In this document: positions 3,629 to 54,200 of the stretch, piece after piece
Numbering within the stretch: position 1 is the stretch's first letter
Layout of the letters: each line of letters opens with the position of its first letter
Source of the DNA: Chiloscyllium plagiosum
Taxonomy: Eukaryota
Assembly (NCBI RefSeq): GCF_004010195.1
Contig: NC_057718.1
Span: 2,310,458 to 2,366,835 of the forward strand
DNA: 56,378 nucleotides
Reading direction: 5' to 3'
Notes under the pieces: generated by a model
What the model was told of the DNA's origin: nothing
The model's input: the letters and a program-made list of their open reading frames with translations, nothing else
Databases searched by the model: none
Position numbers and translations under genes: made by a program

Positions 3629-6600
3629 GTATGGTGAGAGTAAGGATCAGTAAAGGAGAGGGTAGTCTGCTGCCCAAATACTTGGGAGCAATAATTATAA
3701 ACACAGCACTTGAGGCACACTGACATATTTATACCGTATACTGCCTGAGTGGGAGAGTAGGAGAGGGTCAGCATTAACTGCACAGAATTGAATGTTCAAG
3801 AAGCTCTTGGCAGAGCACTGCCCTGTAAGGTCTGCTCAAAATCTATTTTTCCTCTTTTGTTTTTGTCTTGAGATTGAAAATCTGCCAACTGCCAACTGAA
3901 CCAGAATCCATTGTATCATTGTGTAACAATGCATGATTTTCCAGAGGAGTATTACATGGCTATTCCAGACAGCAGAAAAACAGACAGGCCGTGCAGCACA
4001 CTGCTCAAACTCCAGCTGAGCTACTTCATCCTTCTCCCTACTGTGTATGGCCCTGACTGTACATGATCTGAATATAGTGCCCCTGGAACCCATCAGCAGC
4101 TTTATGTTTTTAAAGTTTGGATCTGGCCCTTTAACTTTGCATGTGGGCTTTTAGCCAAGGGTTTCAATAGGAACACAAGTTCATCCCTTTCAGGAGCAGG
4201 AATAGACCATTCAACCCCTTAAACCCACTCTGCCATTCTGTACTATTGTGGCTGATCAGGCTTTGGTCAAAGTTACATTTTCCTGTCAGTTCTGTCTCTT
4301 TGTCTAGTTCAACCCTGAATATTTTTAATGACCCAATCTCCAAGAGCAAGAGCATTCCACAAACCTGCGAACTACTGAAAGTAGAAATTCCTCCTCGTGA
4401 GTAAACGAGACGCTCCTGATTTTGAAACAGTGCCCTCTTGATGTAAATCCAGTGTGAGGTCAATGGTTTCAGTTAGCTGCTGACCAGCCTGTCATAGCAT
4501 GAGGGCTTGATGTTCAGAATGACCCTTCACCATCCCCAAGTGTCACTGGCTACTGACCAGTGTTCAGCAATGTGTAGGAATTCCTCAGTAATGTGGACAG
4601 AACACCTCTGGGACACCAGCACCAACCAACTCAACCGCCCTGTGGCTGAACACTTTAACTCCCCCTCCCACTCTGCCAAGGACATGCAGGTCCTTGGCCT
4701 CCTCCATTGCCAGACCATGGCGACACGACGCCTGGAGGAAGAGCGCCTCATCTTCCGCCTAGGAACCCTTCAACCACAAGGGATGAATGCAGATTTCTCC
4801 AGCTTCCTCATTTCCCCTCCCCCCACCTTGTCTCAGTCCCAACCCTCAGACTCAGCACCACCTTCTTGACCTGCAATCTTCTTCCCGACCTCTCCGCCCC
4901 CAACCCCTCTCCACCTATCACCCTCACCTTAACCTCCTTCCACCTATCACATTCCCAACGCCCCTCCCACAAGTCCCTCCTCCCTACCTTTTATCTTAGC
5001 CTGCTTGGCACACATTCCTCATTCCTGAAGAAGGGCTTATGCCTGAAATGTCAAGGGTGGTCTAAACTCCTCTTCTTCCTTGTATTGTGAGAGTAAGGTA
5101 AAACATTTCAGCTTCCCTTGATCTTCATTAATCACTCCCTTACCCTGTCCTGCCATCCTCCATGATTTCAGCGCACACATACCCAGGTCTCTCTGCTCCT
5201 GCAGCCCCTTTCCGATTGGATCCTGTAATTTAAATTGTCTCTCCATGTTCTATCTCAGTGAATCACAGCACATTTCTCTGCATTAAACATAATTTGCCAT
5301 CCCAGCCTGTCTCTGTCCTCTTGAACTTCTACACAATCCTCCTAATCACAAAAAAGCTTCCAGGTTTTGTATCACCTGCAAATTTTGAAACTGTGTTAGA
5401 AGTTGTCAAGTTTTACCCTGTTCCTTATCCCTCTTTGTTGTCTGTACTACATTAAATTCTCCCATCCTCTCTGTGGGTGGCACGGTGGCACAGTGGTTAG
5501 CACTGCTGCCTCACAGTGCCAGAGACCCGGGTTCAATTCCCGACTCAGGCGACTGACTGTGTGGAGTTTGCACGTTCTCCCCATGTCTGCGTGGGTTTCC
5601 TCCGGGTGCTCCGGTTTCCTCCCACAGTCCAAAGATGTGCAGATCAGGTGAATTGGCCCTGCTAAATTGCCCCTAGTGTTAGGTAAAGGGGTAAATGTAG
5701 GGGTATGGGTGGGTTGCGCTTCGGCGGGTCGGTGTGGACTTGTTGGGCCGAAGGGCCTGTTTCCACACTGTAAGTAATCTAGTCTCTCCCACTGACAGAT
5801 TTGCCCAGTTTATTGTGGACAGTGTCTTATCACAATTAGATTAGTCTCACCCAAAACTACAATCTTAGCAGCTGTTTCACATTTTTCTCTCTCTTTCTTT
5901 CAAATATTATGTTGAATTTGTTCATATAATGATCACTCTTTGATAAATGTTTATGCAGCATTAGGCTGTAACTAACTCATTATTGTTGTTCATTACACTA
6001 ACTCTCACATTTTCTGTTCACTTATTCTTGTAGAAATTTATTCCAGACACACTCAGGACATCCCAGACATACACCAATCTACCTGAAAGTTACAGTTCCC
6101 CATTAAAACGTCTTACTACCCATATACCTAATCCCAGCATCCGTGTAAAGGAGCACTTCAGCACTGACACCAAGTGACTCTGTAGCCAACTCTTACAGCA
6201 GCCCTTATCCCTTCCTTGTTCTGAATGCTTCCTGTAAAGCCACAATTTTCCTCTCATTGTGTTATTGCAACTGAGCTAGCAGGGAGTGAGTCAACTGATT
6301 CCTTATCCCTTGACTGGTCATTGCATATTACCAATGATCTATGTATCAGGTTTATTCCGTATAGTTTCAAAAATGATGCAACCACATTTCATTTGTTAAC
6401 AGACTAACTTGTTACAAAGAAAACTTACTCAAGCAATGACATAAAGATTAATAACAAAATGTTCAAACCGTGCAATTACATATCTGCCCTTTTCTCTCTC
6501 TTTCTCTCACTTACACTCACACGCACACACACGCACATACTCATACACACACACATATATACACAGACACATACACATACACTCTCTCTCTCACACACAC

Positions 6601-9600
6601 ACTCTCTCTCACACACACATACTACACACAGAGACACAAGTGTGAAAAAGTAAAGGGTCTCGTCTTCAAAGAACTTTCACCAGGTGACAGTTGAAGTCAG
6701 GTGAAAGGGGTCATTAATGGATCGTCCCAAATGTTGACCTGTAGCTGAAGTTACTTGTACATCTAAGCTGTTGGAACAAGGGTGTCTTCCTGGATCAGTT
6801 GTGGCTGGTCAAAGTCTACTTTTGGGAGACAGTTAGGTAAATGCATGTTTTCTTTAGGAGCCCTGCATGAGTGGTGAAGCACTGTTGTCAGTTCACACAC
6901 TTTGATGATAAGAGTTTCAACAATTGAGAGAGAGGGCAAAAGGCCTCTCAGCCACATTATCTCCGACTTTGTCTATCTGCGTTCAAAATTCAGTGGCTTT
7001 ATTCCCCCCCCCAGAATGGGTCACTGTGATATCTCTGTGAAAGTCTTGTGGATGGGTTGTCTCTATTCAATCCCTGTTCCTTGCTGCTGCAGCCTCATTG
7101 CTGTTGAAGCGAGCTTTCTTGGCGTTGAAGAGTATTCTTTTTAAAAAGTTCAAGATTTAAGCATGTGTTTTGTCAATTATAGTTCAAAAAGCACAATATC
7201 CTCTCTTTTCATTGCAGTGATTTCATCCTGCTTCACAAACTTTACTTGTGCCCCTGTATCAATAGACTTGCTCTGTTAGTCCATGTCCTGGTTGCCTTGA
7301 GCCCTGTCTCAGCAATAGCAACTCCGCTATCCCCCCAACTCTGAGTTTGTGGCTGCAAAGCATTCGATTTTTACATCATTCATTCATGGGATGTGGGTGT
7401 CACTGGCTGGATCAATATTTACTGCCTGTCCCTAGTTGCCCCTTGAGAAGGTGGAGGTGAGCTGCCTTCTTGAACCGCTGCAGTCTGTGTTCTGTAGGTT
7501 GACCCACAATATCATTAGGGAGGGAATTCCAGGATTTGGACCCAGTAACATTGCAGGAACAGGGATATATTTTCAAGTCAGGATGGTGAGGGTTTTGAAG
7601 GGGAACTTGCAGGGCCTGGTGTTCCCATTATCTGTTGCCTTTGTCCTTCTAGATGCAAATAGTTGTGCATTTGGAAGGTGTCATGTAAGGAATTGACCCT
7701 CATTTGTTCCTCATGCTCTGATGATGTTATCAAAAATATTTTACAACATGAATTAGCACTTCAACAGGTTTGGGTTCAGCTGCCTGACCTAAAACATCTG
7801 TTAATATCAGAAAAGGTTGGATATGGCTCTCCAGAGTGTGTAATTAATCTCAGGTTAAATTGGCCATCTGTCCACTTCCATCTGACTTGTAGGATCGAAA
7901 TCATTCCCACATATTTATCTGCCTGTTTAAATTGAATCGATGTTAAATATATCTTCAATGTATCTTTCAAGTGATTGAGAACATAAATTTTCATGTCACT
8001 CACTTAGAATACAATCCTGAATTACTAGCCCATTGAACAGAAGCCTAAAGTTAGCCAGACTTTCTGAAACTTCTGTCTTTGGAGTTGAGGAGAAACTACT
8101 TGTCCCAAAGGGTTATGAATTTGTGAAAGCTGTTACCCCAAAGTGCGGTGGATGCTGAGACGGGGAGTAAATTTAAGGAGGAGTTAGACAGAAGTTTAAT
8201 TGGTAATAGGTTGAAGGGATATGGAGAGAGGGCAGGAGAATGGGGGTGTGGAGCATATCAGCCATGATCGAATGGTGGAGCAGACTAAATGGTCTAATTC
8301 TGCTCCTATATCTTATAAAGGTATGGTGTGTCCATCGGGCTTGGGAAGTCTGTAGTGAGGTGGTTGTACAGACTTGATGGACCATCGGGTCTTGTATGCT
8401 TTCGCGCTCTATGGCACTAACCCTGTTGTTCTGTTCACTCTGTTACTCAAAATATACCTTTCCACTTGCAGAGAAATGGTCAGTAGTAATGTGTGAGCCT
8501 TCTTGCTAGCGTCACAATGCTATAACCATTTATTTATTTAAAGCATCAATGTGAGAAACTCACAAAGTGTCAGACCTCGGTATAATTTGCAGCTGTTTCC
8601 TGTGGCCATGAAAAAATAGAATCTCCGTGTGTCGACTTCAGTAATCTCTGTTGAACACACTGGTCCCTGATGTTTTGCCTATAGTCCCCAAGCCCAAGCT
8701 GTTGTTATCACACTCATACTCTCTTCCTCTTGCTTTAGGCAATGAGCCATTATAAAACTGAATCTTTCAACAATTATTCTTTCAGGAAGAGTTGAAGATC
8801 CTGATGAAGTCTCTACAATCCAAGATGGTGAAATTCAGTGCAATCAGAAATGAGTATGAGCTCACCTTAAAGCACATCAAAGTAAGTTCCCAGCGATTAC
8901 GCTCAATGCAGAACTAACCTTGAAGATTAGGTTCATCAAGCCTTGTTCTGAAATAAAGTAAAACTTTTTGTCCCTCTTCAGAATTAGAATTCTAAATCCG
9001 TGGCCTGTAAGTGAATAAGGATAAGATTGTCATGAATGTTTGTGAATATGCAGTTTTGTTGTTTTAGATGACCCAGTCTTCACTCACTCACTCACTCACA
9101 TAGTGCTCCCCACATGGACTGATAGTTCAAAAGTTACATGTAAACCCCAAAATCTGCAAAGCAGATCTGGATACGTTAAATACTAATTCCACGGAAATTT
9201 GAGTAAGGTTAACATGTCCAAATTGTCACGGATGCACATAAATATTCAGTGAAGGCAATAACAAAAATAAAATGATCACCTTAACTACTGAAGCCAACCA
9301 TAGAGTAAGTAATGCCAGATCTGGTATTGTGCAATGAGTCAGGTTTAATTAATGATCTCATAGTGAAGGTCCGGAGTTTAGATTAGAATGGTGCTGGAAA
9401 AACACATCAGGCAGCTCCTATGAAGGGCTTTTGCCCGAAACATCGATTTTCCTGCTCCTCGGATGCTGCCTGACCTGCTGTGCTTTTCCAGCACCACTCT
9501 AATCTAAACTCTGGTTTCCAGCATCTGCAGTCCTCACTTTTGCCTCATAGTGAAGGTCCCACTAGGCAGCAACAAACACAATTTGATTGAATTTTACATT

Positions 9601-12600
9601 CATTTCAAGGGAGAGAAAAGTGGGCCCAAGACTTTTTTTGAAATTAAATAAGGGCATGAAAGCAAGGCTGACTAATTGAGATTTCAGGATAGGTCGATAG
9701 GGATACAAAGGCCAAGATGTAAGGAAATATTTTGAATGCATGGAATAGTTACATTCCAATGTGTAACAAATATTTCTCGGGACAGATCTAATATCTGTGG
9801 TTAACCAGAAATGTTAAAGTTAGTATGAGAGTTAGTCACAGGTCAGAAGTGGACAAAGTATAAAAAGTAACAACTATCTTCCAAACCCACGACCACTTCC
9901 ATCGAGAAGGACAAAGGCAGCGGATACATGGGAACACGACCCCCTGCAAGTTCCCCCCCAAGCCACTCACCACCCTGTCTTGGAAATGTGTCACTGTTCA
10001 TTCCCTGTCACTGGGTCAAAATCCTGGAATTCCCCTCCCTAAGGGCATTGTGGGTCAACCCACAGCACATGGACTGCAGCGGTTTGAGAAGGCAGCTCCC
10101 CCCCCCAACTTCACAAGGGACAATTAGGGACGGGCAATAAATACTGTCCCAGACAGCAATGCCCATATCTTGTGATTAAATAACACTATAAAGCATGCCC
10201 ATGTTTCAATTAAATAAAACAAGAACTAAAGATGCTGGAATTCTGAACCTTAAACAGAAACTTCTGGAGAAACTCAGCAGATTTGGCAGCAACTGTGGAG
10301 AGAGAAAACAGAGTTAATGTTTCAGGTCCAGTGACCCTTCTTCAGAGCTGATAGTAGTTGGGAAAGATGGTATTTATGCTGAAGATGGGGGTGTGAGAGC
10401 ATTGAGGAAGGAGTGAGTTGAATAGATGGTTCCTGTGCTGAAAAATGTGTTATTGGAAAAGCACAGCAGGTCAGGCTTCAGGTCAGATTCCTGAAGAAGG
10501 GCTTATGCCTAAAACATCGATTCTCCTGCTCCTTGGATGCTGCCTGACCTGCTGTGCTTTTCCAGCAACACATTTTTCAGCTCTGATCTCCAGCAACTGC
10601 AGTCCTCACTTTCTCCTAGATGGTTCCTGTGCCCAGATAGACAGGGAAAAAAATACAGGGAAGCAGGATTTGTCTTCACTCCTCAGAAGCTGAGTAATTA
10701 CCCCGTGAGTGGAGTTGGCATTTTCAGCTCGTTTCGAAAAAGCTTTATCAATGAACTACAAGTGCAGATAGTGAAGTGAGATAGTCTCTCTCATCTCAAA
10801 GCCAGAATCCATAGCCAATCTGATGCAGAAACACTACAATTCAAACAGAAACTCAGCAGGTTGTAGAGTCCTACAGCACGGAGACAGGCCCTTGGCCCAA
10901 ACCGATCCATGCTGACCGAAATGTCTATCCACACTAACCCCATTTCCCTGCACTTGGCCCATTTCCTTCTAATCCTTTCCTATCCATGTATTTGTCCAAA
11001 TGCCTTTTAAATGTTGTTGACGTACCCACCTAACCACTTCTGCTGGCAGCTCATTCCATATGCGTACCACCCTCTGTGTAAAAAAAGTTGCCCCTCAGGT
11101 TCCCTTTTATTCTTTCCCCTCTAACCTTAAACTGATGTCCTCTAGTCCTGATTCCCCAACCCTGGGGAAAAAAGACTGAGTGCATTCGCCCTGTCCATGC
11201 CTCTCATGATCTTATATAACTCTATAATGTCCCCCCTCAGTCTCCTATGATCTGAAGAGAAAGATCCTAGTTTGTCCAACCTCTCCCATTGACTCCAGGT
11301 GACATCCTTGTAAATTTCTTCTGCACTCTTTCCAGTTTAATAACATCCTTTAATAGTATCAAATAGGTCTGGCAGCATCTGTGGAGAGAGAAACAGAGTT
11401 GACAATTCGATTCTGGCCTGACTGTTTGCCAGAACTGCTTGTTTATATTTTCAGTCTCTAGCGTTGTCAGAATTTTACTTTCATTTTCATGTTGATAGAC
11501 TATGGATCAGGACCTTGACTCCAAACACGCAATGTAACATTTCTCATTCCACTGAACTGCAGTTCGATTTCTCCTCAGTCAATGTGCATAGCTTCCCAGA
11601 TCTGGATGACAACGTTAAGGAGAGTGGGCTAATGCCAGCACAATATATCCCACTATCCTTTCTCAGCAACAATATAGTGTTTGTGTTCACCCCTTGTTCC
11701 CCCTCATAGCATTTCCTCATCACCCATTGATCTCAGGCTGAGTTTGTTTGGATCTGAGAAATGTGAAACTAGTTATTGTTCAGTGTTTTCCTTGGCTGTG
11801 TGTTGCTGCCTGACTCACACACCCAGCTGTGACTGATCCAGACCATGGCAAAAACAGCCTGTAATTTACCAGGGATAACTCTCCCACAAATATAACCCTC
11901 CAGCAAATGGAACATATCCTCTTTGCAATAATCCACCAAAGCTAAAGCCCCCAGCTCCTAAAAACATCTCACACTGCAGTTTCCACCCAGTCAACAAGGA
12001 TCCGCCAAGTGCAAATCCTTTAGACTCAAAAAAAAGAGAAAGTGTTGGAGAAACTCAGCAGGTCTGGTAGTGTCTGTGGAGAGAGAAACAGAGTTAACAT
12101 TACAAGTCTGATATGACTCTGCTTCAGATGAGTTCTGATGAAGAGTTGTACCAGACCTGAAGGAAGGGTCACTCAAACCGAAATGTTAACTCTGACTTCT
12201 TTCTACGGATTTTGCCAGACCCGCTGAGTTTCTTCAGCACTTTCTGTTATATTTCAGATCCCTAGCATCTGCAGTATTTTGCATTTGTTTGTCAGACTCA
12301 AACTGTTTTGGTTTCTAACAGAGCCAGGCTTCGGGAACTGAGAAACAGATCAAACAGGAATTTCAGAAGCTTCACTGTTTCCTTCACCGGGAAGAGAGGA
12401 TTCTCATGAGCAATCTCCAAAAAGAGGAAGAACATCATGTTCAGTTAATGAAACAAAAAATCAAGGAGGTCTCTGAGGATATTTCCTCATTAGAAGCTAC
12501 CATTCAGTCAATCGAGAGTGAGCTCAGTCAAAGGGACTCAGCCCTTTTCTTACTGGTAAGTAACAGTAGCTCAGGGAGCATGAGGTTACAGGCAGAGGGT

Positions 12601-18754: not shown

Positions 18755-18889
18755 TGCCATTAGACTGGACACGGTCAAACGGTTTCTCAAGCACTTGTTC
18801 TCCGGTGAAATTCCCAGTATTATCGCACTTTGGGCGAAGAGAGAGCAGCACTTAATTTCCCTTCAAACACAGAGTGCTACCTGAGGCTA

Positions 18890-18891
<2 letters not shown>

Positions 18892-22087: not shown

Positions 22088-24254
22088 TATTCCATCACAC
22101 TCCTGACGCCTCAGAGAATGGTGAAACTTTGCAATTCATTGTCTCAGATGACTGTGGAGTCTTAGTCACTGAGGATAGAGATCAATACATTTCTGGTTTC
22201 TAATGTCACCAAGGGATATGGAGATGGTTTGGGATTATGACATTGAGGTGAATGATCAGCCTGATCCAGAATGACTCAGTAGGATCGAGGGGCTGAATGG
22301 ACAACTCCTGCTTGTATTTCCAGTGTGGCTATCCCACTGCTGATTGGGTGGTGGAATTAGGAAGCAAAGTGTGGATATGTTAGGCAGGTAACCAATCACT
22401 GGGTGCTATACTTTAAGAAGCTTTTCAGTGCAGAAGGGCTGAGAGGAGTGAAGTGATTCAGAGAGGTGGCCCCCTGATATCAGAATAGGGAATGCTCTTA
22501 TCCATCTCTGGAAACGGGGAACGCTCCAACCGGCAGGGTGAGGGAGCAGGGCCATGGATGGGGGCAGGGTGAGTACGGTCAGGTAGGGTGGGCTCAACCA
22601 TGCAGAGCTTTGAAACTGAAGGCGACAATATTGAAAGGGGTGTTATTAAATCAACACAAAGAGCCAATATCTAGGGGCTTTCCTTTTGTGGTGCCACTGT
22701 GGCTGTATCCCAATTTTTATTTACAATGATTTCATAGTTAAAAAGCACAGGAGTAGACACTTTGGCCCGTCAATCCCACCTACATTATCCATCTAATCCT
22801 GTTTCAATTCTATGGCTCCATTTCACACTCTCCCAACTTGTGAGAATTTTTATCCTGAATACCAGGTTTCAGTAGATCCCCACATACTTTCCGTTTGAAT
22901 GTCACTCTAATGACCTAAGTCTTTCCAGTTTGTTCCCATTAGGTGGAATTGCAATGCGTTTCATCTTGATCCAATGCCCTGAGGAGTGAGGCAGTGAACA
23001 CAGAGAGATGACCAGGCCACACTCTCCGTGTTCCACCTCAGTTTTGTTTTAAAACAAAAAATACTGGAGAAACTCAGCAGATCAGGCAGCAGCTGTGGAG
23101 AGAGAAACACAGTTAACGTTTCAAGTCCTGTGACCCTCCATCAGCATTTGTCAGATGCTGTGAGAGCTGTTGAGTTTCTCCAGTATTTTCTGATTTAGTT
23201 GCAGAGCTGCAGCATCTGCAGTATATTATATTTCTCTCCCTTGTTTCTGTGATGCTGGGTTTACACAGCCCTGATATTCATTGGTATACTTTATGTGTTT
23301 GAATCTTCACTTGTTCTTTGGGCTCAGGAATTTCTCCTACTTTGGGATTGGATTGAAAGTGCAGCCGTGTTTTTGGGAATTGCACTGTCTTGGTGAGTTG
23401 CTGTTGCATCTGGAAGCCAGAAGGTGGCAGGTTCAAATCATGCTCCGGGCCATCTCTGCCTGGACGTATGAGTCTAACTAACAGGGCTCGTGTGGCCTGT
23501 GGGTGGGTGTCTGGGCCCAGCAAGGGTCATGGTGGAGGTTAAGTAACAGGAAAGTTATCTGGCTGTAAAACATTACCCACATGCAAGGAGTTGATCCATG
23601 GAGCAATCAGATATGGTTGGAACATAAAACCACCAGAAGGGAATCACATTCTGTGATCTAAACACGCCCTCATTTGGATGTGGGAAGGATGTAACAGGGA
23701 GTGTTTAGGAGCAGAAAGCAAATGGATCCTGGTAAAGTCTGCAGGATGCCCCTGAAAGTAAGTTCCCGGTCAGTGCTGTGCCCTGTGGGACCTGTTCAAT
23801 CTCAGCCAGTTTCTCGAGAATTCTGAAACATATTCTTTCTGAGCATGTCCTTGGTTTAGTTAGAAAGGTTAATGTTCCCATGATTGTTGCAGGTCAGTAA
23901 TACCTCGGCAGAGCCTTCTCACTGTGATATTTGTTCTCCTTTATTGAAGCTCCATGAGACCATGACAGGGTTATAACAAAGTGGGAAAGCAACTGCTCCC
24001 ACAATGAGGCTCTGGAACAAGCAAAGTCCCCAAGTGGACAAAGTTTGTGAATTATACAAATTAAAATAAAGATTGATTTTATTTCATTGTTGTCTGGCTG
24101 TTTACAGAATCTATTCTACCTTTATCCTCACTCTTTCCACACATGCAGTCTACAGCACAGTCCATCCAGTCCACCTCTGCAATGGCAGAGATTGTGCTCC
24201 ACACCAACTTCCTCCCAGCTTCCATCATTAAACATTATCAGCACATTGGAATAC

Positions 24255-27357: not shown

Positions 27358-28029
27358 TGCCCAAGTGCAAAATGAGGTATTGTGTCCCCCCAGGCACCCC
27401 CCTCCCCCAGCTTGCATTGCAGCAAAAGGATCACTATTTTCCAGCGGCTTCTGAGGAAGGGTCACTAGCTCAAAATGTTAATTCTGTTTTTCTCTCCACA
27501 GATGCTGCCAGACCTGCTGAGTCTCACCAGCATTCTCTTTTTTTCATTTCAGATTATGTATTTGGTTTTCATTATCCAATATACATGCTGGATAAAGTTT
27601 AACATTACTCTTTAACAGAAACTGTTTGTTTATCCAGTCTGTCCCATTTCCACCTCCCCTGCATTTGTATAGCCTACATAATCTTTATGATCAGGTCTTT
27701 TACTGATTTGTCTGTGAGTTGTTGTTGGCTGTTTGTCTGGTTTCTACACATTCCTGAAGTGACGAACATTCTCCCAGAAACACGATTTAGTTTGTGTCAA
27801 CACTCTGGATGCAATCATCCCGTTATCCTTGCTGCAGGAAAATAGCTCCATGTCCTCCCTCGCTGGCATCTCATTGTCTGATAAGTTCATCACTGCAGTA
27901 CACCTCAGAGGGCCATCAGTCTGTAAAATTCTTTACAGTGGAGGGCTGTCAAGACTGGGTCATTAAGTATATTCAAGGCTGAGAGAGACAGATTTTTAAT
28001 CAACAGGGGAATCAGGAGTTATGGGGAAG

Positions 28030-36884: not shown

Positions 36885-37097
36885 GAGAAAATCACACAAC
36901 ACCAGGTTAGAGTCCAACAGGTTTATTTGGAAGAACTAGCTTTCAGAGCGCTGCTCCTTCATCAGGTGGTTGTGGAGTATATTATAGTGGAGTATATATA
37001 AGTTCTTATTATCCACAACCATCTGTTGGACTATAACCTGGTGTTGTGTGATTTTTAACTTTGTCCACCCCAGTCCAACGCCGGCTCCTCCACATCA
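36885..37097. mobile_element. Foldback Penelope-derived element, third family; relative at 46471-46595 with TSD ctgaggaactcc
   Basis: Arms aatcacacaacaccaggtta / taacctggtgttgtgtgatt; minus-strand CTGATGA-A-GGAGC-AGC-GCTCT-GAAA-GCTA. Confidence 0.75.
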
Positions 37098-45270: not shown

Positions 45271-45387
45271 AGGTAAAAACAATGACTGCAGATGCTGGAA
45301 ACCAGATTCTGGATCAGTGGTGCTGGAAGAGCACAGCAATTCAGGCAGTGAAATCGACGTTTCGGGCAAAAGCCCTTCACCAGGAAC
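45271..45387 (-). mobile_element. Penelope-derived mini-element with 14-bp TSD
   Basis: TSD ctgcctcaggttca at 45257-45270 and 45388-45401. Confidence 0.8.
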
Positions 45388-45549
45388 CTGCCTCAGGTTC
45401 AGCACTTTCCTGAGAGATGAGAATGGCCACCTGGTGGCAGCACAGAGTCAAGGAACCCAGCATCACCCAACACTGAAACAATAGAGTGTGATAGCAGACT
45501 GCAGGAACAATGAATAGAACATCCTACTGCCGCAAACACTGACATTTCT

Positions 45550-47545
45550 ATTCATTCACAGGACGTGGGTGTTACTGGCTGGGCCCAGCATTTATTGCCT
45601 GTCCATAGTTGCCCCTTGAGAATGTGAGGGTGAGCCGCCTTCTTGAACCGCTACAGTCCATGTGCTGTGGGTTAATCGACAATGCCCTTAGGGATTGCAG
45701 GATTTTGACCCAGTGACACTGAAGGAACGGCGATATATGTCCAAGTCAGGATGAGGAGGGGCTTGGTGGGTAACTTGCAGGAGGTGGTGTTCCTCTGTGT
45801 CTCCTGCCCTTGTTCTTCTAGATGGAAGTGGCTGTGGGTTTGGAAGGTGCTGTCTGAGGATCTTTGGTGAATTTCTGCAGAGCATCATGTAGATAGTACA
45901 CACTGCTGCTACTGAGCATCAGTGATGAAGGGAGTGGATGTGGTGCCAATCAAGCAGTTGGATGGTGTGAAGCTTTTTGAGTGTTGTTGGAGCTGCACCC
46001 AACTAGGCAAGTGGGGAAAATTCCATCATACTCCTGACTTGTGCCTGAGAGATGGTGGACAGGATTTGAGCAGTCAGGAGGGGAGTTAGTCACCACAGTA
46101 TTCCTATGGGGGAATCCAGTTGAGTTTCTGCACACTGTATCCCCAGGACGTTGATATCAGGGGATTCAGTGATGGTAGCATCATTGAATGTCAAAGGGAA
46201 CTGATTAAATTGTCTCTTATTAGTGATGGTCATTGCCTGGCATTTGTGTATTGCAAAAAGTTACTTGTTACTTTTCAGCCCAAGCCTGGATATTGTACAG
46301 ATCTTGTTAGATTTAGACATGGACTGCTTCAGTATCTGAGGAGTTGCGAATAGTGCTGAACATTATGCAATCAACAATGACCATCCCCACTTCTGACCTT
46401 ATGGTGGAAGGAAGACTATTGATGAAGCACTGAAGATGGTTAGGCCTAGGACACTCCCCTGAGGAACTCCCTTCATCATGTGAAGGAGCAGCGCTCTGAA
46501 GGCTTGTGATTTCAAATAAACCTGTTGGGACCATAACCTGGGGTCATGTGATTTTGGGTTTTGTCCACCCCAGTCCAACACCGGCCCCTCCGCATCTGAG
46601 GAACTCCTGCAGCGATGTCCTAGAGCTGAGATGACTGACCTCTAGCAACCTCCTATGTGACAGATATGACTCCAACCAGCTGAGGGTTTACCCCCACCCC
46701 CCTCCAATTCCCATTGATTCCAGTTTTGTTAAGGCCCCTTGATGCCACACTTGGTTGAATGCAGCCTTGATGGCAAGGGCTGTTACTCTCACCTCTGGAA
46801 TTCAGCTCTTGTGCCCATAGAACCCCGACAGTGTGAATGTAGGCCATTCGGCCAATCAAGGCCACGCTGTCCCACCCACACCCGCCACCCTACACTATAA
46901 CTCTGCACATTATGGGTAATTTAGCATGTTCAATTCACCTAATCTGCACATCTTTGGACTTTGGGAGTAAACAGGAGCACCCAGAGGAAATACACACAGA
47001 CACGGGGAGAATGTGCAAACTCCGCACAATTACTCACCCAAGGCTGGAATCGAACCCGGGTCCCTGGTGCTGTGAGGCAGCAGCACTAGCCATTGAGCCA
47101 CCGTGCTGCCATGTTTGAAGCAAGGCTGTAATGAGGTCAGGAGCTGAGTGGCCCCAGTGGAATCCAAACTGGGCGTCACTGAGCAGGTTATTGCTGAGCA
47201 GGTGCTGCTTGATAGCCCTGTTACTGACACCCTCCAACACTTTACCGATGATTGAGAGTAAACTGATGGGGCGGTAACTGACTGGGTTGAATTTTAAGTA
47301 CAGGACATACCTGGTCAATTTTCCACATTGTCGGGTAGATGCCAGTGGTGTAACTGTACTGGAACAGCTTGGCTCGGGGACCTGCAAGTTCTGGAGCACA
47401 AGCCTTCAGGACTATTGCCAGAATATTGTCAGGGTCCGAGCCTTTGCATTATCCAGTGTCTCTGACTGTTTCTTGATATCACAAGGAATGAATCGACGTG
47501 GCTGGAGACTGGTATCTGTAATGCTGGGGACCACTGGAGGAGGCT
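45550..47545 (-). mobile_element. Same LINE family, longer copy, with nested Penelope-type insertion (46471-46595) and V-SINE (46820-47110, minus)
   Basis: PQGSVLG split by the insertion; NPVSYRPISLLSIIGKVLEG..QFGFHWGHSAPDLITAL. Confidence 0.82.
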
Positions 47546-48278: not shown

Positions 48279-48291
48279 ATGTCACTGTCTG
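48279..48291 (+). CDS. STMN4: STMN4 first coding exon (13 coding nt; exon probably 48208..48291)
   Basis: Poly-T acceptor tttgcag|G at 48208; accATGTCACTGTCTG|gtatgt, phase 1. Confidence 0.85.
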
Positions 48292-51200
48292 GTATGTTTC
48301 ACCCTGTCCCCCGCAATGCCATTTCAACACACCAGCCTGCCACAGATTACCCCAGATAGTGAGAACGAGACCGAGACAGTGCAGGCGAGCTTATTAAAAT
48401 GAGAAAGCAGACACATACGCAGCCATTTCACCCTCACAGTGACACAAGCCAGTCCTGAAAAGAAAAGAATGCTCCTTAATCCTCAAAAACATAATCATGA
48501 AATGTAACGTGTGTAGAGTCCAGTCTCATCTCTCCATGTGCATGAACAGGGTTTCTGACCACAACAGATATTTACCAATCAGCCTGTCCAAAGATGTTAT
48601 TACACACTGCTGGAGCAGATCAGACAGAACCTCCATCCTCCTGTTTCAGAGATTGAGACACTACCACTACAACACCACAGCCCCCTTTCAATAACAGTAT
48701 TGGTCACAGTTATAATAATTATTTCAGTAACTGCCAAGTTCCGGTACATTGCTCTAAATCCAGATTTAAAAATAATTATTTTTCTTGAGACTCTGGTGTC
48801 CCTAACTGCCATAATCTGAGTGTCTCACTTGGCCCTTTCAGAGTCACCCCATTGTAATGGGTCTGGAGTCACGTGTAGGCCAGTGCAGGTAAGGGTGGAA
48901 GATTTCCTTTCCTAAAGGGCATTATTGAACCAGATCGTTTGTTATGATAATTGACTATGATTTATAATCGCGCAGGGCAATTAGGGATTAACAATAAAAA
49001 CAGGTCTAGCTAGCAATGTCCACATCCCACAGGTGAATTTTAAAAATATTATCCTCCGCTACTATCTCCCTATAAATGTCAACATGATTCTTTGGGGGTT
49101 TTGAGAAGATTTGTAGCTCAGGTTGAGGTTCTGGATGTAGGTTTGCTCGCTGAGCTGGAAGGTTCATTTCTAGACATTTCATCACCCTACTAGGTAACAT
49201 CTTCAGTGGGCCTCAGGCAAAGCAGTATACATGATTCCTACTTTCTATTTATATGATTGGGTTTCTTTGTGTTGGTGATGTCATTTCCTGTTCTTTTTCT
49301 CAGGGGGTGGTAGATGGAGTCTAACTCGATGTGTTTGTTGATAGAGTTCCGGTTGGAATGCCTCTAGGAATTCTCATGCGTGTCTCTGTTTGGCTTGTCC
49401 TAAGATGGATGTGTTGTCCTAGTCGAAGTGGTGTCCTTCCTTATCCATATGTAAGGATACTAGTGAGAGAGCGGCACGGTGGGCGCTCTAATCTAATCTA
49501 ATCTAATCAGAGCTTCATGTCGTTTTGTGGCGAGTTGGTGTTCATGTATCCTGGTGGCTAGTTTTCTGCCTGTTTGTCCAATGTCGTGTTTATCACAGTT
49601 CTTGCACGGTATTTTGCAAGAATAGAACAGGAAATGACATGCTTTGCCTGAGGACCACTGAAGATGTTACCTAGTAGGATGACAAAATGTCTGGAAATGA
49701 ACCATCCAGCTCAGCAAGCAAACCTACATCCATGATTCTTTGGGACAGCATCCAAAAGATTACGCTGAATTGATGTGTTTCAGTGAGTGAGGGCTGAGGA
49801 CATTGCTATCACACAATGTATTCTCATTGTTCTGTCTCTGTTCACTTCCAGCGTACAAACAGAAGATGAAAGAACTTCCTCTCTTTAACCTTCTCTGTTC
49901 CTGCTTCAACCCAGAGCCCCGAAATAAAACTCTCTATAAGTTTGAAGGTGAGTGATAGTGGAGTTGTCTCCGTGTTGTGAGGACAGGGCTTAGACAGCGA
50001 TATCTGTAGTGACAGCTGAGCCACAGTGTTTAGACAGCGCCACCACTGGTGGGAGGGTGCCATGTCAGTGTGACATGTTTACATTGGAAAAGAACTGATT
50101 ACATTTTTTATTTATTGTTTCTCGCGATGTGGGCATCACCAACTAGGTCAGCATTTGTTGCTCGTCTCTAATTCCTCTTGAACTGTGTGGCTTGCTAGGG
50201 CCATTTCAGAGGGCAGTGAAGGGTCAAACCACATTGCTGTAGGTATGGAGTCACGTGTAGGTCTGACCAAGGAAGCAAAGCAAGTTCTCTTCCCTAAGAG
50301 AGGACCAGATGTGTTTTTATGACAATTGATGATAATTGAGGAGAAAGTGAGGGCTGCAGATGCTGGAGATCAGAGCTGAAAATGTGTTGCTGGAAAAGCG
50401 CAGCAGGTCAGGCAGCATCCAAGGAACAGGAGAATCGACATGTCGGGCATAAGCCTGAAGAAGGGCTTATGCCCGAAACGTCGATTCTCCTGTTCCTTGG
50501 ATGCTGCCTGAATTGATGATAATTGCCAATGTCATAATCACAGAGACTTCAAATCCAGATTTATTGATTGAATTGGAAATTCTGGCTGTGGTGGGATTTG
50601 ATACCATGGCCCCTAATCAGGAGGCTGACCTCTGGATGTACTGTGGCCCAGTTGCCTCAATTTCCTGTTCGTCATCATGACAGAGACTTGGGCCAACACC
50701 TTCCAGCACATTGATCAAGGCCAGCTGGAGGGACAACGACCTACTAACGTACTCCTGACACTGAGTGACGGGCCACAGTAAATACAATGGGTTACAGCAA
50801 GATACTGCAGAGGGGAACAGACAGCTGAAGGCAGTGATACAACTGTAGGATGTTGGTGTGGAGTGCAGCAGCATATGGACTTAGCCTCTCTGGATCTGAG
50901 GAGGAAATCTGGGGTTACTGTTGGGATGGCGAGGGACCAGGTAACTGGGGTCTCCAGGTTACAAAAAGATTGCAGACGGGAACAACATATAATGAGGAAG
51001 ATAAATGAATGTTAGCCTTTATCCTGATTTCCGGGATTCACAAAGAAAGAATTCATCTTGAAGTTGACGTTTGTCAGATCTGAGTCCGCTTGAGTATTTC
51101 ACCTCATGAAGGAGAGATTGGTTTTTGGAGATTCTCCAGGATTACAGCAAGACAGGTACTCACATCATGGTTAAGGTCGGGGAATATAGAAAGAGAAATG

Positions 51201-54200
51201 GTTCCCTTTGCTGAGACCATCTGGAACTGAACCTATTCCTAAAATTAGAGACAGGTCATTCTGGAGCGATGTCACATTGAAGTGCCCACTTCTAGGTTGA
51301 GGTGCTAAGATTTATTTATTTATTTTTGGATAAAGAGATCAAGAGAAATGGAAGATATCCAACATGATCTCATTGAATGGTGGAACAGACTCGATGGGCT
51401 GAATAGCTTCCTCTAGTTCCGGTGTAACAGACTCAAGGAGGGGGCTGAATGGTCTCCTGCTGTTCCTGTTTAACATACCAGAGGGGCAGAATGGCACCCT
51501 GCTGCTCTATTCCTGATGAAGGGCTTTTGCCCGAAACATCGATTTTCCTGCTCCTCGGATGCTGCCTGACCTGCTGTGCTTTTCCAGCACCACTCTAATC
51601 CAGACTTTGGTTTCCAGCATTTGCAGTCCTTGTTTTTACCCTGCTGTTCTTGTTTAACATACCAGAGGGGCAGAATGGCCTCCTGCTGTTCTTGTTAAAC
51701 ATACCTGAGGGGTGGAATGGCCTCCTGCTGTTCCTGTGTAATAGACTCAAGGTGGAGATTGCATGGCCTCCTGCTGTTCCTGTGAAACAGACCTGAGGGG
51801 CTGAATGGCCTCCTGCTGTTCCTGTGTAACAGACTCAAGGAGGGGGCTGAATGGCCTTCTGCTGTTCTTGTTTAACATACCAGAGGGGCAGAATGGCCTC
51901 CTGCTGTTCTTGTTAAACATACCTGGAAGGGTGGAATGGCCTCCTGCTGTTCCTGTGTAACATACCTGAGGGGCTGAATGGCCTCCTGCTGTTCCTGTGT
52001 AATAGAGTCAAGGAGGAGATTGAATGGCCTCCTGCTGTTCCTGTGTAATAGAGTCAAGGAGGAGATTGAATGGCCTCCTGCTGTTCCTGTGTAACAGACT
52101 CAAAGAGGGGACTAAATGGCTTCCTGCTGTTCCTTCAATAGACTTGAGGGGCTAAATGGACCCCTGCTGTTCCTGTGAAACAGACCTGAGGGACTGAATG
52201 GCCTCCTGCTGTTCTTGTTTAACATACCAGAGGGGCAGAATCACCTCCTGCTGTTCTTGTTAAACATACCTGAAGGGTGGAATGGCCTCCTGCTGTTCCT
52301 GTGTAATAGACCTGAGGGGTTGAATGGCCTCCTGCTATTCCTGTGTAACATACCTGAGGGGCTGAATGGCCTCCTGCTATTCCTGTGTAACATACCTGAG
52401 GGGCTGAATAGCCTGCTGCTGTTCCAGTGAAACAGACTCAAAGAGGGGACTAAAATGGTTTCCTGCTGTTCCTTTATAATAGACTTGAGGGGCTGAATAG
52501 CCCCCTGCTGTTCCTGTGAAACAGACCTGAGGGACTGAATGGCCTCCTGCTGTTCCTGTGAAACAGACCTGAGGGGCTGAATGGCCTCCTGCGGTTCCTA
52601 TGTAACATACCTGAGGGGCTGAATGGCCTCCTGCTGTTCCTGTGAAACAGACCTGAGGGACTGAATGCCCTCCTGCTGTTCCTATGTAACAGACCTGAAG
52701 GACTGAATGGCCTTCTGCTGTTGCATGTAACAGACCTGAGGGGCTGAATGGCCTCCTGCTGTTGCATGTAACAGACCTGAGGGGCTGAATGGCCTCCTGC
52801 TGTTCCATGTAACATACCTGAGGGGCTGAATGGCCTCCTGCTGTTCCATGTAACAGACCTGAGGGGCTGAATGGCCTCCTGCTGTTCCATGTAACATACC
52901 TGAGGGGCTGAATGCCCTCCTGCTGTTCCTGTGAAACAGACCTGAGGGACTGAATGCCCTCCTGCTGTTCCTATGTAACAGACCTGAAGGACTGAATGGC
53001 CTCCTGCTGTTCCTGTGTAATAGACCTGAGGGACTGAATGGCCTCCTGCTGTTCCTGTGAAACAGACCTGAGGGGCTGAATGGCCTCCTGCTGTTCCATG
53101 TAACAGACCTGAGGGGCTGAATGGCCTCCTGCTGTTGCATGTAACAGACCTGAGGGGCTGAATGGCCTCCTGCTGTTCCATGTAACATACCTGAGGGGCT
53201 GAATGCCCTCCTGCTGTTCCATGTAACAGACCTGAGGGGCTGAATGGCCTCCTGCTGTTCCATGTAACAGACCTGAGGGGCTGAATGCCCTCCTGCTGTT
53301 CCATGTAACAGGCTGATTTGCTTTTCTTTCAGATCCCGTTGACCTGAACTGGTGCTTCATATCTGACATGGAGGTGAAGGAGCTGAACAAGAGAGCGTCG
53401 GGCCTGTCGTTCGAAGTCATCCTGAAACCACCGTCATTTGAGGGAGTCCCAGAATTCCACACTGCCTTGCCAAAGAAACGGGATCCTTCCCTTGAGGAGA
53501 TCCAGAAAAAACTTGAGGCTGCTGAAGAGAGACGGAAGGTACAGTCCATAGAAATCCCAGATCACCGAGGGGAGTTTCTCAGGGAATATCCGCACACCGA
53601 GGGGAGTCTCTCAGGGAATATCTGCACACCGAGGGGAGATTGTCATGAAATATCTGGACACCAAGGGGAATCTGTCAGGACATTGTAGGTGGTGGCATGG
53701 TGGCTCAGTGGTTAGCACTACTGCCTCACAGCACCAGGGTCCCAGGTTCGATTCCAGCCTCAGGTGACTGCCTGCGTGGAGTTTGCACATTCTCCCTGTG
53801 TCTGCGTGGGTTTCCTCCCACAGTCCAAAGATGTGCAGGTCAGCTGGATTGGCCATGCTAAATTTCCCCATAGTCAGTTAGTCAGATGGAAATGGGTCTG
53901 GGTGGGTTACTCGTCGGCGGGTCGGTGAGGACTGGTTGGGCCGAAGGGCCTGTTTCCACACTGTAGGGGAATCTAAACAAAAAAAAAATGGACTCTGGGT
54001 GAGTCTCTCAGGGAATATCTGGACAGCGAGGGGAGATTCTCAGGGAAAAGACGGACTCTGGGGGGAGTCTCTTAGGAGGATGTATGGACTCTGTTGTTCC
54101 GACGTTTTTTTTGACTGTAGTTTTTTTTGGTTTAGTGTCAGGAAGCGGAGTTACTGAAGCACCTGGCAGAAAAGAGGGAACACGAGCGAGATGTGATCCA

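What the first reader, a model, noticed from the sequence alone, without database searches (positions are those of the whole stretch)
5021..51545. Four unrelated Penelope-type ends each carry a minimal hammerhead ribozyme motif with covarying helices
Seen: the layout helixI-CUGANGA-N-helixII-GAAA-NN-UH-helixI recurs with completely different helices. Family A: CUGAAGA-A-GGGC/UUAU/GCCC-GAAA-CG-UC (50455+; variants 5025+, 10490+, 30215-30245 minus, 45355-45385 minus, 51513+). Family B: CUGAAGA-A-GGGUC/ACUG/GACCU-GAAA-CA-UU-aacuc (10311-10349 minus; helix I gaguu/aacuc visible at 12130-12192). Family C: cac-CUGAUGA-A-GGAGC/AGC/GCUCU-GAAA-GC-UA (36934-36968 minus). Family D: cca-CUGAAGA-U-GUUACC/../GGUGAU-GAAA-UG-UC (49170-49209 minus; helix I cca/ugg in the 49657+ copy). 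In the best copies helix III is just a palindrome (ACGU or AGCU). Families A and D lie directly downstream of GIY-YIG coding remnants. Established: Penelope-like elements carry minimal type I hammerheads proposed to cleave as dimers. Inference: this genome has several parallel ribozyme-bearing lineages at more than 10 copies per 56 kb. The general association is known; these particular families may be uncharacterised.
Basis: partly seen in the sequence, partly recalled or inferred. Interest (0 to 1): 0.8.

Follow-up and report, generated by a model that had tools for sequence, protein, structure and literature searches.

The report
Penelope retroelement hammerhead ribozyme relics
The recurring motifs are real minimal hammerhead ribozyme sequences at the tail ends of Penelope-like jumping genes and their short derivatives, a kind of element described since 2014, and most copies in this window are decayed.

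Summary
All listed sites carry the layout helix I-CUGANGA-N-helix II-GAAA-NN-UH-helix I. I count 18 recognisable copies or arms in the window. Both catalytic boxes are intact in 7 of 18, and 3 pass a strict descriptor against 0.01 expected by chance.

All four families are very abundant in the 3.56 Gb genome: A about 141,000 copies, C about 54,000, B about 9,800 and D about 6,200, with every reversed-pattern control at 0.

They are Penelope-like element (PLE) 3' ends. A, C and (weakly) D lie downstream of GIY-YIG coding remnants. Copies show variable 5' truncation and head-to-head inverted pairs. All four families have two alternative 3' ends about 35 nt apart, the published PLE "tail" signature.

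- A and B are not unrelated, because their tails are homologous. That leaves three independent lineages.
- B showed no coding part upstream in any of 12 loci.
- Helix I is weak in A, with a U.U mismatch.

Helix II and helix I covary between families while the core is invariant. I found no footprint of in vivo cleavage in copy ends or RNA reads.

This is the min-HHR class of Cervera and de la Pena (2014), so these are new members of a known kind. The scan has already reported the same thing from at least eight other stretches of this genome.

The parts
4594..4800 (+). C-terminal GIY-YIG endonuclease remnant of the family A Penelope-like element
   Evidence: tblastn with P0001 residues 686-757 gives E=8.5e-13, and with P0003 residues 747-809 gives E=1.7e-8. 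P0003 carries RVT_1 and GIY-YIG above the Pfam cut-offs. The window ORF itself has no Pfam hit.
5017..5052 (+). Family A hammerhead in PLE 3'UTR context. Both boxes are intact, with G10.1.U11.1 and helix III AUGU. The sequence diverges right after H17, so there is no tail.
   Evidence: covariance model R1 scores 39.1 bits, E=3e-9
9409..9450 (+). Family A2 copy with the first box broken (CUAUGA)
   Evidence: R1 E=2.7e-9
10310..10351 (-). Family B hammerhead with both boxes intact. Helix III is ACAU (CpG decay) and the 10.1-11.1 pair is G.U.
   Evidence: R1 E=1.9e-11
10483..10524 (+). Family A copy with G12>A (AAAA instead of GAAA), abutting a partial inverted arm
   Evidence: R1 E=7.1e-14
12096..12193 (.). 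Head-to-head pair of old B-type copies (minus arm 12096-12131, plus arm 12152-12193). Both cores are broken.
   Evidence: the plus arm scores R1 E=0.29
23109..23150 (-). B-type variant with A9>G and ACGU kept. It is one arm of an inverted pair with 23134+.
   Evidence: R1 E=0.006
27444..27485 (+). Decayed B-type copy (G12>A, helix II broken)
   Evidence: R1 E=0.023
28172..28253 (.). Decayed A-type head-to-head pair (arms at 28177- and 28222+)
   Evidence: R1 E=5.8e-5; a sub-threshold miRNA-like hairpin hit lies here
30211..30252 (-). Complete family A minimal hammerhead (ACGU, H17=U), followed by the A tail
   Evidence: strict descriptor hit. It was used to train model R1. The minimum-free-energy fold shows helices I and II.
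36937..36972 (-). Complete family C minimal hammerhead (AGCU, H17=A, G10.1.U11.1). It is one arm of an inverted pair with 37007+.
   Evidence: strict descriptor hit
45350..45388 (-). Family A2 copy with A6>G (CUGGUGA)
   Evidence: R1 E=1.4e-11
46470..46505 (+). Decayed C-type copy with both boxes broken
49173..49214 (-). Family D hammerhead with both boxes intact and a 7-bp helix II. Helix III is AUGU and helix I is mutated in this copy.
49523..49612 (-). GIY-YIG motif remnant upstream of the D hammerhead on the same strand (weak)
   Evidence: tblastn with P0003 residues 724-753 gives E=0.007, 53% identity over 30 aa. The frame reading '...[23 protein letters not shown]...' is interrupted by stops.
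49650..49691 (+). Short inverted D copy, head-to-head with the previous one. It has G12>A, and helix I cca/ugg is intact.
50339..50560 (.). Family A head-to-head pair. The minus arm (cleavage-site equivalent at 50436) is cut inside helix II. The plus arm carries a complete hammerhead at 50450-50482.
   Evidence: R1 E=8.4e-12; the outer end at 50338-50341 is marked by loose read ends
51505..51600 (+). Family A2 hammerhead (both boxes intact, ACAU) plus a tail ending at 51593-51600
   Evidence: used to train R1; loose read ends at 51593/51596/51600

Best explanation
These are the 3'-terminal modules of endonuclease-positive Penelope-like retrotransposons (PLEs) and of short non-coding copies derived from them. 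Each module is a minimal type I hammerhead followed by a 40-105 nt tail. The hammerhead has helix I of 3-5 bp, CUGANGA, one unpaired nucleotide, helix II of 4-7 bp, GAAA, and a helix III reduced to the palindrome ACGU or AGCU, then H17.

Shown here:
- The motif, its abundance, and its position relative to GIY-YIG coding remnants.
- The PLE-type insertion anatomy.
- Invariance of the catalytic core across three lineages with unalignable tails, while the helices differ but stay paired.

Inferred from the literature:
- The palindromic helix III lets two motifs pair into an active dimer.
- The PLE reverse transcriptase starts copying internally, at either of two sites downstream of the ribozyme. 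New insertions therefore end 40-105 nt past the hammerhead, with or without a roughly 35-nt 'tail'.
- Most new insertions are 5'-truncated or folded back, and so dead on arrival.

The copies in this window are such relics. They sit in introns of a TRIM-like gene and in intergenic DNA, and they decay mainly at CpG sites.
For: Motif and chance: see the observation check.

Abundance.

Coding association:
- The window ORF 4498-4866 has more than 100,000 first-look candidates in the genome; 150 were scored and all reached E<=6.5e-46.
- A fuller relative, L050:868-1908, aligns at E=5e-49 (37% identity over 252 aa) to the C-terminus of P0003. P0003 has RVT_1 at residues 300-473 (34.5 bits, cut-off 29.6) and GIY-YIG at 719-798 (29.7 bits, cut-off 22.6).
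- The C hammerhead is collinear with a GIY-YIG remnant in L027. The same 940-nt stretch recurs with variable 5' starts, and 3 further copies span about query 5-940 and a fourth 5-866.

PLE anatomy:
- D copies start at 12 different upstream points.
- The 3' ends are bimodal in all four families: A 58-71 and 92-106 nt, B 59-72 and 93-108, C 49-59 and 84-91, D 39-50 and 71-84 nt after the cut site. This matches the two adjacent RT start sites and the 30-40 bp tail of Frangieh et al. 2024 (main text read) and Craig et al. 2021 (passages).
- 28 of the first 100 exact A copies form 14 head-to-head pairs.

Covariation:
- On the homologous A/B alignment, helix II is 96.7% paired.
- Pair 20-27 is C-G in 10 rows and U-A in 10. 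Helix I pair 8-39 is C-G in 7 and U-A in 7.
- Overall pairing is 79.9%, against 12-52% when partners are slid.
- Across families, the fourth helix II pair is C-G (A), U-A (B), G-C (C) and A-U (D).

Extra features: the unpaired nucleotide after A9, G10.1-C11.1 and the palindrome are all present, as in the published consensus (the supplement alignment shows the same '...C G U C' layout).
Against: - No Rfam hammerhead model matches, at gathering score, at E<=10 over the whole window, or on 71 bases around a complete copy.
- Helix I in family A has only two contiguous pairs before a U.U mismatch (2 + 1 pairs).
- Single-strand folds are no more stable than shuffles (z from +0.21 to -1.45). The family C minimum-free-energy fold is not the hammerhead.
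- A covariance model trained on A/B did not detect C or D at E<=10.
- Covariation within homologous sequence rests on essentially one A/B split, giving two compensatory pairs.
- Family B had no coding sequence upstream in 12 of 12 loci.
- The D coding link is weak (E=0.007).
- No sign of cleavage in vivo:
  - Tails whose four upstream bases all differ from the motif number 110, against 26,311 with the motif.
  - In a sample enriched for atypical tails, 3' break points spread over +0 to +10 with no peak at the cut site (classified by eye).
  - RNA reads showed no place where molecules begin or end (a single-cell polyA library, poorly suited to this).
- More intact elements read N in the genome copy, so a full pLTR-ORF-pLTR unit was not seen.
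Confidence: 0.9

Rival explanations
1. The motif is kept by PLEs for a reason other than self-cleavage. It could be part of the RNA platform that the element's RT binds near its internal initiation site, or a selfish passenger of PLEs. On this view the 'ribozyme' is rarely or never used for processing.
For: - Frangieh et al. [quoted passage not shown]
- Craig et al. 2021 note that PLE clades without hammerheads proliferate well and that hammerheads may parasitize PLEs.
- Here, only 110 tails begin at the cut site against 26,311 with the motif.
- No read ends pile up at the cut site.
- The motif sits 40-105 nt upstream of the copy's 3' end in every family.
Against: - The fifteen catalytic-core positions are the only bases shared by three lineages with unalignable tails. 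This is hard to explain by protein binding alone.
- Published PLE hammerheads do cleave, as dimers or with protein.
- A genomic footprint is not expected if cleaved RNA is simply not the template.
Confidence: 0.3
2. The short units of families A and B are an independent class of non-autonomous, retrozyme-like or SINE-like retroposon. They would have their own transcription start at the ribozyme, rather than being truncated PLE copies.
For: - B copies share no sequence beyond about 5 nt upstream of CUGA in 12 of 12 loci.
- Of 100 listed exact A 5' halves, 18 have a unique flank within 0-5 nt of CUGA, and 10 of those 18 end in G/A-ATTC where the PLE context has CATTC. By comparison, 46 continue into PLE 3'UTR (counted by eye; the sample is biased towards the PLE context by the R required at position -15).
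- A 2026 preprint argues that animal retrozymes are non-autonomous PLE derivatives (abstract and passages).
Against: - No tandem array of these units occurs in the window.
- Retrozymes are defined by tandem repeats and circular RNA, which were not seen here.
- The same head position is also the commonest fold-back junction (29 of 100). That fits an RT stop or template switch as well as a transcription start.
- No promoter or transcription start was tested.
Confidence: 0.3
3. The head-to-head pairs are miniature inverted-repeat DNA transposons (MITEs), and the hammerhead-like strings are incidental.
For: - Many copies are near-perfect inverted pairs with spacers of 0-30 nt.
- These give sub-threshold miRNA-like hairpin hits.
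Against: - The same sequence occurs as solo copies, and downstream of GIY-YIG coding sequence with graded 5' truncation.
- The two arms are of unequal length.
- The outer ends are bimodal, as in PLEs.
- Published PLE insertions typically carry an adjacent inverted 5'-truncated copy.
Confidence: 0.03
4. The motifs are chance matches to a loose pattern.
For: The boxes are short. 5.7 loose matches per window are expected by chance, and several of the 17 loose hits are indeed unrelated sequence.
Against: - The strict motif gives 3 hits against 0.01 expected.
- Each family has thousands to 141,000 genomic copies with reversed-pattern controls of 0.
- The motif holds a fixed position relative to the element's 3' ends.
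Confidence: 0.01

Closest known systems
Minimal hammerheads (min-HHR) in the pseudo-LTRs of metazoan Penelope-like elements (Cervera and de la Pena 2014, PMC4209133; parts 1-2 of the whole-text view read in full, plus term searches of the main text and of supplement file 2)
   Same: Type I topology and the CUGANGA/GAAA/UH boxes. One unpaired nucleotide after A9, and G10.1-C11.1. No helix III, only palindromic 15.2-16.2 (ACGU/AGCU). Short helix I and a longer helix II. Several consensus families per genome with compensatory changes. Mostly solo or opposite-strand pairs derived from truncated PLEs.
   Different: Neither the main text nor supplement file 2 mentions cartilaginous fish (file 1 could not be searched). 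Copy numbers here (about 141,000 for one family) are far above the 4,000-9,000 quoted for coelacanth and Xenopus, though the counting methods differ.
Poseidon PLE of Anolis carolinensis (PAc), studied in vitro (Frangieh et al. 2024, PMC11167929; main text read)
   Same: The hammerhead lies a fixed distance upstream of the point where reverse transcription starts. There are two adjacent start sites, giving insertions with or without a 30-40 bp tail. The ORF carries RT and GIY-YIG. No RNA-seq ends fall at the cut site.
   Different: In PAc the ORF start overlaps helix II. I could not establish that here, because intact copies are withheld as N. The distances differ: 40-105 nt here against about 85-92 nt. 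No biochemistry exists for the shark families.
Non-LTR retrozymes, and the proposal that they are non-autonomous PLE derivatives (Cervera and de la Pena 2020, PMC7229834, search listing only; Li et al. 2026 preprint, abstract and passages)
   Same: Short non-coding units carrying type I hammerheads and sharing sequence with PLE pLTRs. One cartilaginous fish was positive in the preprint.
   Different: Retrozymes are tandem arrays that yield circular RNA. The window has no tandem array of these units. The units here are dispersed solo copies or head-to-head pairs.
Sm-alpha / Sj-alpha SINE-like hammerhead retroposons of Schistosoma (as summarised in PMC6765202; passages read)
   Same: Short, very abundant non-autonomous retroposons that carry a hammerhead near their head.
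   Different: Those carry canonical hammerheads with loop-loop contacts and a Pol III-type promoter (the promoter type is from recall). Families A and B here have the minimal form and a PLE-type tail.
Rfam hammerhead families (type I, II, III, HH9, HH10; the family list is recalled)
   Same: The same catalytic core.
   Different: No match at any threshold tried. Presumably this is because the models expect a helix III hairpin.

Membership tests
min-HHR of metazoan PLEs (Cervera and de la Pena 2014) | Catalytic boxes CUGANGA ... GAAA ... U16.1 H17 in type I order | tested here: met
   All four family forms have them. In the window both boxes are intact in 7 of 18 copies.
min-HHR of metazoan PLEs (Cervera and de la Pena 2014) | One unpaired nucleotide between A9 and 10.1 | tested here: met
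   It is A in families A, B and C, and U in family D.
min-HHR of metazoan PLEs (Cervera and de la Pena 2014) | G10.1-C11.1 pair | tested here: met
   G-C occurs in A copies and in genomic variants of C and D. Window copies of B, C, D and 5025 show G.U, consistent with CpG to TpG decay. For B no C11.1 copy was seen, so G-C is inferred.
min-HHR of metazoan PLEs (Cervera and de la Pena 2014) | No helix III hairpin; positions 15.1-16.1 form a 4-nt palindrome | tested here: met
   ACGU in A and D and in a B-type variant (23115-), and AGCU in C. The palindrome is kept in 3 of the 7 box-intact window copies; the rest read AUGU or ACAU.
min-HHR of metazoan PLEs (Cervera and de la Pena 2014) | Helix II of 4-8 bp with compensatory variation between families | tested here: met
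   Lengths are 4, 5, 5 and 7 bp. Helix II is 96.7% paired on the A/B alignment, with one fully compensatory pair. Four different Watson-Crick pairs occupy the fourth position across families.
min-HHR of metazoan PLEs (Cervera and de la Pena 2014) | Short helix I (4-5 bp; 2 bp in D. virilis) | tested here: inconclusive
   B has 4-5 bp. C and D have 3 bp. A has 2 bp, then a U.U mismatch, then 1-2 bp. Helix I cells are 64.6% paired on the A/B alignment.
min-HHR of metazoan PLEs (Cervera and de la Pena 2014) | Lies in the terminal repeat or 3' region of an element encoding RT plus GIY-YIG | tested here: met
   Met for A and C. Weak for D (E=0.007). Not met for B (0 of 12 loci), although its tail is homologous to that of A.
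min-HHR of metazoan PLEs (Cervera and de la Pena 2014) | Self-cleavage after H17, as a dimer or with protein | not testable with these tools
Indirect looks found no footprint.
PLE insertion unit (Craig et al. 2021; Frangieh et al. 2024) | High and variable 5' truncation | tested here: met
   D copies have 12 different upstream starts. C copies start at many query positions. In A, 46 of 100 listed copies extend into the 3'UTR.
PLE insertion unit (Craig et al. 2021; Frangieh et al. 2024) | Adjacent inverted 5'-truncated copy | tested here: met
   There are 14 head-to-head pairs among the first 100 exact A copies. Pairs also occur in B, C and D. In the window, pairs lie at 12096/12188, 23114/23134, 28177/28222, 36936/37007, 49172/49692 and 50436/50483.
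PLE insertion unit (Craig et al. 2021; Frangieh et al. 2024) | Optional 30-40 bp tail, meaning two alternative ends | tested here: met
   The 3' ends are bimodal and 33-40 nt apart in all four families.
PLE insertion unit (Craig et al. 2021; Frangieh et al. 2024) | Partial tandem pLTR-ORF-pLTR | not testable with these tools
   No such unit is in the window. The longer copies fetched read N over the coding part.
Rfam hammerhead families | Score at or above the gathering threshold of a hammerhead covariance model | tested here: not met
   0 matches.
Non-LTR retrozymes | Tandem head-to-tail arrays of hammerhead units | tested here: not met
   None of the 24 tandem-repeat rows in the window contains a hammerhead unit. 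A few tandem junctions appeared in a genome sample.

The most novel reading that the evidence does not exclude
The very abundant short units may not be random truncations. Each is a hammerhead plus a 60-100 nt tail, its 5' end sits 0-5 nt before CUGA (often with an extra purine), and the units are often joined head-to-head. They could be run-off products made when the PLE reverse transcriptase starts internally just 3' of the ribozyme, on transcripts whose 5' end lies at the ribozyme. On this reading the hammerhead marks the start of the PLE transcription unit in this lineage. That would explain why single (non-tandem) PLE copies yield only dead 100-nt progeny. It would also have loaded this genome with more than 200,000 hammerhead motifs, more than ten times the largest count in the 2014 survey.
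Probability: 0.25. Interest if true: 0.45.

Novelty: new member of a known kind. Interest (0 to 1): 0.2.

Why it matters
This adds cartilaginous-fish families to a ribozyme-retroelement association that is already well documented. My literature searches and term look-ups found no description of these families.

The four families also show, within one genome, the PLE "tail" signature that was explained biochemically only in 2024. The copy numbers are unusually high.

The finding does not change what is known about how hammerheads or PLEs work. The copies in this window are inert relics.

Tried and rejected
- **Rfam.** No hammerhead hit at gathering score, at E<=10, or on a 71-base slice.
- **Pfam on window ORFs.** None of the 145 window ORFs of at least 78 aa hit GIY-YIG at E<=0.01. 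Even at E<=1 the window remnant had no hit. The link to PLEs came through genomic relatives instead.
- **Fetching long open frames.** I tried to see a full element. The long "ORFs" were runs of withheld N, and I did not pursue this.
- **Insertions ending or starting at the cut site.**
  - The copy at 5025 does end exactly after H17.
  - In a genome sample enriched for atypical tails, break points spread over +0 to +10 with a mode near +5 to +7. This was classified by eye from 100 rows.
  - Tails whose four upstream bases all differ from the motif number 110 against 26,311 with it. Many of the 110 are recurrent fold-back junctions.
  - I rejected this as a cleavage footprint.
- **RNA evidence.** No RNA holder was listed for the stretch. 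Raw single-cell polyA reads of the same species label lie on the repeats in both orientations, and 98% of them come from other copies. No place was reported where molecules begin or end. The library type is unsuited to the question, so this is uninformative on cleavage.
- **Thermodynamic folding.** z-scores ran from +0.21 to -1.45, which is not informative.
- **Cross-family alignment.** MAFFT misaligned C and D, so pair counting with the tool was limited to A/B.
- **Covariance model.** A model trained on A/B found 11 A/B-type copies at E<0.05, but it found neither C nor D.
- **ORF start inside helix II, as in PAc.** The N-termini of the six homologues gave no support.
- **Lunse et al. 2017.** The paper is not held and was seen only in reference lists.

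Full report
**What is there**

A loose pattern, CTGANGA-N5-30-GAAA, gives 17 matches in the window against 5.73 +/- 2.34 in shuffles; 0 of 100 shuffles reach 17.

My own strict descriptor requires both boxes, helix II of at least 4 bp with G.U allowed, a palindromic A-NN-U, and H17. It finds 3 complete motifs (30217-30252 minus, 36937-36972 minus, 50450-50482 plus). The mean in 200 dinucleotide shuffles is 0.01.

Anchoring on the conserved tails instead of on the ribozyme raises the inventory to 18 recognisable copies or arms. Both boxes are intact in 7 of 18. The commonest lesions are those expected from CpG decay:
- ACGU becomes AUGU or ACAU.
- The C11.1-G12 step becomes UG.

Rfam has no match at any threshold.

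**Abundance**

All counts are forward plus reverse in the 3.56 Gb genome, and every reversed-pattern control is 0.

| Family | Copies | Pattern |
|---|---|---|
| A | 140,868 | 28-mer, up to 2 mismatches |
| B | 9,754 | 30-mer, up to 3 mismatches |
| C | 53,711 | 29-mer, up to 3 mismatches |
| D | 6,211 | 34-mer, up to 3 mismatches |

I also looked at about 205 kb of fetched flanks plus the window, counting only copies not selected by their ribozyme. The boxes were in place in 16 of 51 A/B copies, 3 of 13 C copies and 6 of 11 D copies. Most copies are therefore decayed or truncated.

**Family forms**

| Family | Form |
|---|---|
| A | auuc-CUGAAGA-a-GGGC/uuau/GCCC-GAA-ACGU-C followed by GAUUC |
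| B | aguu-CUGAAGA-a-GGGUC/acug/GACCY-GAA-ACRU-U followed by AACUC |
| C | cac-CUGAUGA-a-GGAGC/agc/GCUCC-GAA-AGCU-A followed by GUG |
| D | cca-CUGAAGA-u-GUUACCU/agua/GGGUGAC-GAA-ACGU-C followed by UGG |

For B, the G-C form of 10.1-11.1 is inferred; every B copy I saw has U there.

The core is identical across families apart from N7 and H17. The fourth helix II pair is C-G, U-A, G-C and A-U in A, B, C and D respectively. The first helix I pair is C-G, U-A, C-G and A-U.

**Relatedness**

A and B are not unrelated.
- Their tails align at E=4.7e-13, with 80% identity over 69 nt.
- They are collinear in a 20-row alignment.
- 51 of 65 A-tail hits overlap B-tail hits.
- The C and D tails match nothing else (E>=1.4).

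So there are three independent lineages, one of which is split in two.

On the A/B alignment the named structure is 79.9% paired, against 12-52% when partners are slid. Helix II is 96.7% paired. Two pairs are fully compensatory between A and B: C-G in 10 rows and U-A in 10, and C-G in 7 and U-A in 7. That is real covariation, but it amounts to one evolutionary split. Helix I is only 64.6% paired, and in A it has a central U.U.

A covariance model trained on A/B finds 11 A/B-type copies in the window at E<0.05. It does not find C or D. This confirms that little sequence beyond the core is shared between the lineages.

**Are they Penelope-type ends?**

- **Family A.**
  - The window ORF 4498-4866 sits directly upstream of the 5025 copy. 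It has no Pfam hit, but it is the worn C-terminus of a hugely repeated protein.
  - A fuller relative (L050) aligns at E=5e-49 to the last 250 residues of an 812-aa protein that carries RVT_1 and GIY-YIG above the Pfam cut-offs.
  - tblastn places residues 686-757 of such proteins at window 4594-4800.
- **Family C.** The ribozyme is collinear with a GIY-YIG remnant 549 nt upstream in L027. That 940-nt stretch recurs genome-wide with graded 5' starts.
- **Family D.** The link is weak: a 30-residue GIY-YIG match at E=0.007, plus the frame read by eye.
- **Family B.** No coding sequence was seen upstream in 12 of 12 loci.

Structural signatures described for PLE insertions (Craig et al. 2021, passages; Frangieh et al. 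2024, main text) are all present:
- **Variable 5' truncation**.
- **An adjacent inverted, truncated copy.** There are 14 head-to-head pairs among the first 100 exact A copies.
- **Two alternative 3' ends 33-40 nt apart**, in each of the four families. This matches the optional 30-40 bp "tail", now explained by two adjacent internal RT start sites.

**How it most likely works**

*Shown:* the anatomy above.

*Inferred from the cited papers:*
- The ribozyme lacks helix III. It can become active only when two motifs pair through the ACGU or AGCU palindrome, or with help from the element's protein.
- The PLE RT binds and starts copying a short distance 3' of the ribozyme. Every insertion therefore carries the ribozyme plus a tail at its 3' end.
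- Most insertions stop early or fold back.

I looked for a genomic or RNA footprint of cleavage and found none. This agrees with the 2024 finding that unprocessed RNA is the template. It leaves open the rival view that the motif is rarely used catalytically.

**An unexplained regularity**

Many A and B copies begin 0-5 nt before CUGA.
- Of 100 listed exact A 5' halves, 46 continue into PLE 3'UTR, 29 are fold-back junctions, 18 have a unique flank, and 7 are other.
- Of the 18 with a unique flank, 10 end in G/A-ATTC (counted by eye; the sample is biased towards the PLE context).

This could mark a transcription start, an RT stop at the folded ribozyme, or microhomology with the ATT target preferred by the PLE endonuclease. 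I could not distinguish these.

**Comparison and novelty**

This is the min-HHR class of Cervera and de la Pena (2014).
- The "extra" base after CUGANGA and the C-G-U-C style 3' half appear in their own alignment.
- Their main text and supplement file 2 do not mention cartilaginous fish (file 1 could not be searched).
- A three-term search for Penelope, shark and ribozyme returned nothing relevant.
- A 2026 preprint found tandem retrozymes in one cartilaginous fish.
- I cannot check Repbase or Dfam.

The families are therefore at most new members of a known kind. Earlier notes of this scan reached the same verdict on eight other stretches of this genome.

Noticed in passing
window 3212-3634, 12319-12729, 18152-18751 (+): Exons of a TRIM-like gene: RING plus B-box, coiled coil, and PRY/SPRY. 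The hammerhead copies between 5,000 and 12,200 lie in its first long intron. Four are in the sense orientation, and none of those four can form a complete ribozyme.
   Followed up: partly
window 53317-53685 and 54136-54411 (+): Two ORF pieces matching the Stathmin family, at profile positions 2-62 and 61-125. They look like two exons of a stathmin-like gene.
   Followed up: no
window 51640-53311: A 42-nt minisatellite with 39.5 copies at 86% match, starting about 40 nt after the end of the A2 copy. The long minus-strand ORFs at 52380-53561 are an artefact of this array.
   Followed up: no
window 39061-40382 and 55916-56378: A 70-nt satellite with 18.9 copies. The same unit appears in reverse complement at the window's end, running off it.
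   Followed up: no
window 29506-29844 and 30475-31140 (+); 1454-1951 (+); 47037-47405 (-): LINE-type fragments, namely an AP endonuclease and RVT_1, plus two further RT fragments. PLE proteins did not match these fragments.
   Followed up: partly
window 19701-19847 and 21718-21793: Long near-perfect hairpins give sub-threshold plant-miRNA-like Rfam hits (55.3 bits against a gathering score of 135). By eye, the arms of the first resemble an old A-type tail, so it is probably another decayed head-to-head pair.
   Followed up: partly
L031:1491-1537 (-) and other family C copies: In family C the first bases of the tail (GUGCUUCC) are complementary to the 5' strand of helix II. The minimum-free-energy fold is therefore an alternative hairpin, not the hammerhead. 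This could be a conformational switch or a coincidence.
   Followed up: no
genome sample of family A 5' ends: Short copies with a unique upstream flank mostly begin G/A-ATTC-CUGA, whereas the PLE context reads C-ATTC-CUGA. With G at -5, helix I becomes GAUUC/GAUUC, which is 4 pairs around a U.U mismatch.
   Followed up: partly
L005:1480-1620: A solo short A copy is flanked by the direct repeat ATACCAGATT on both sides. This is a 10-bp target duplication ending in the ATT motif that the Anolis PLE endonuclease prefers.
   Followed up: no
L051, L052 (G000:C12 and C5): The longest 'open frames' next to family A ends (1561 and 764 codons) are runs of withheld N. The more intact elements could therefore not be read.
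   Followed up: no
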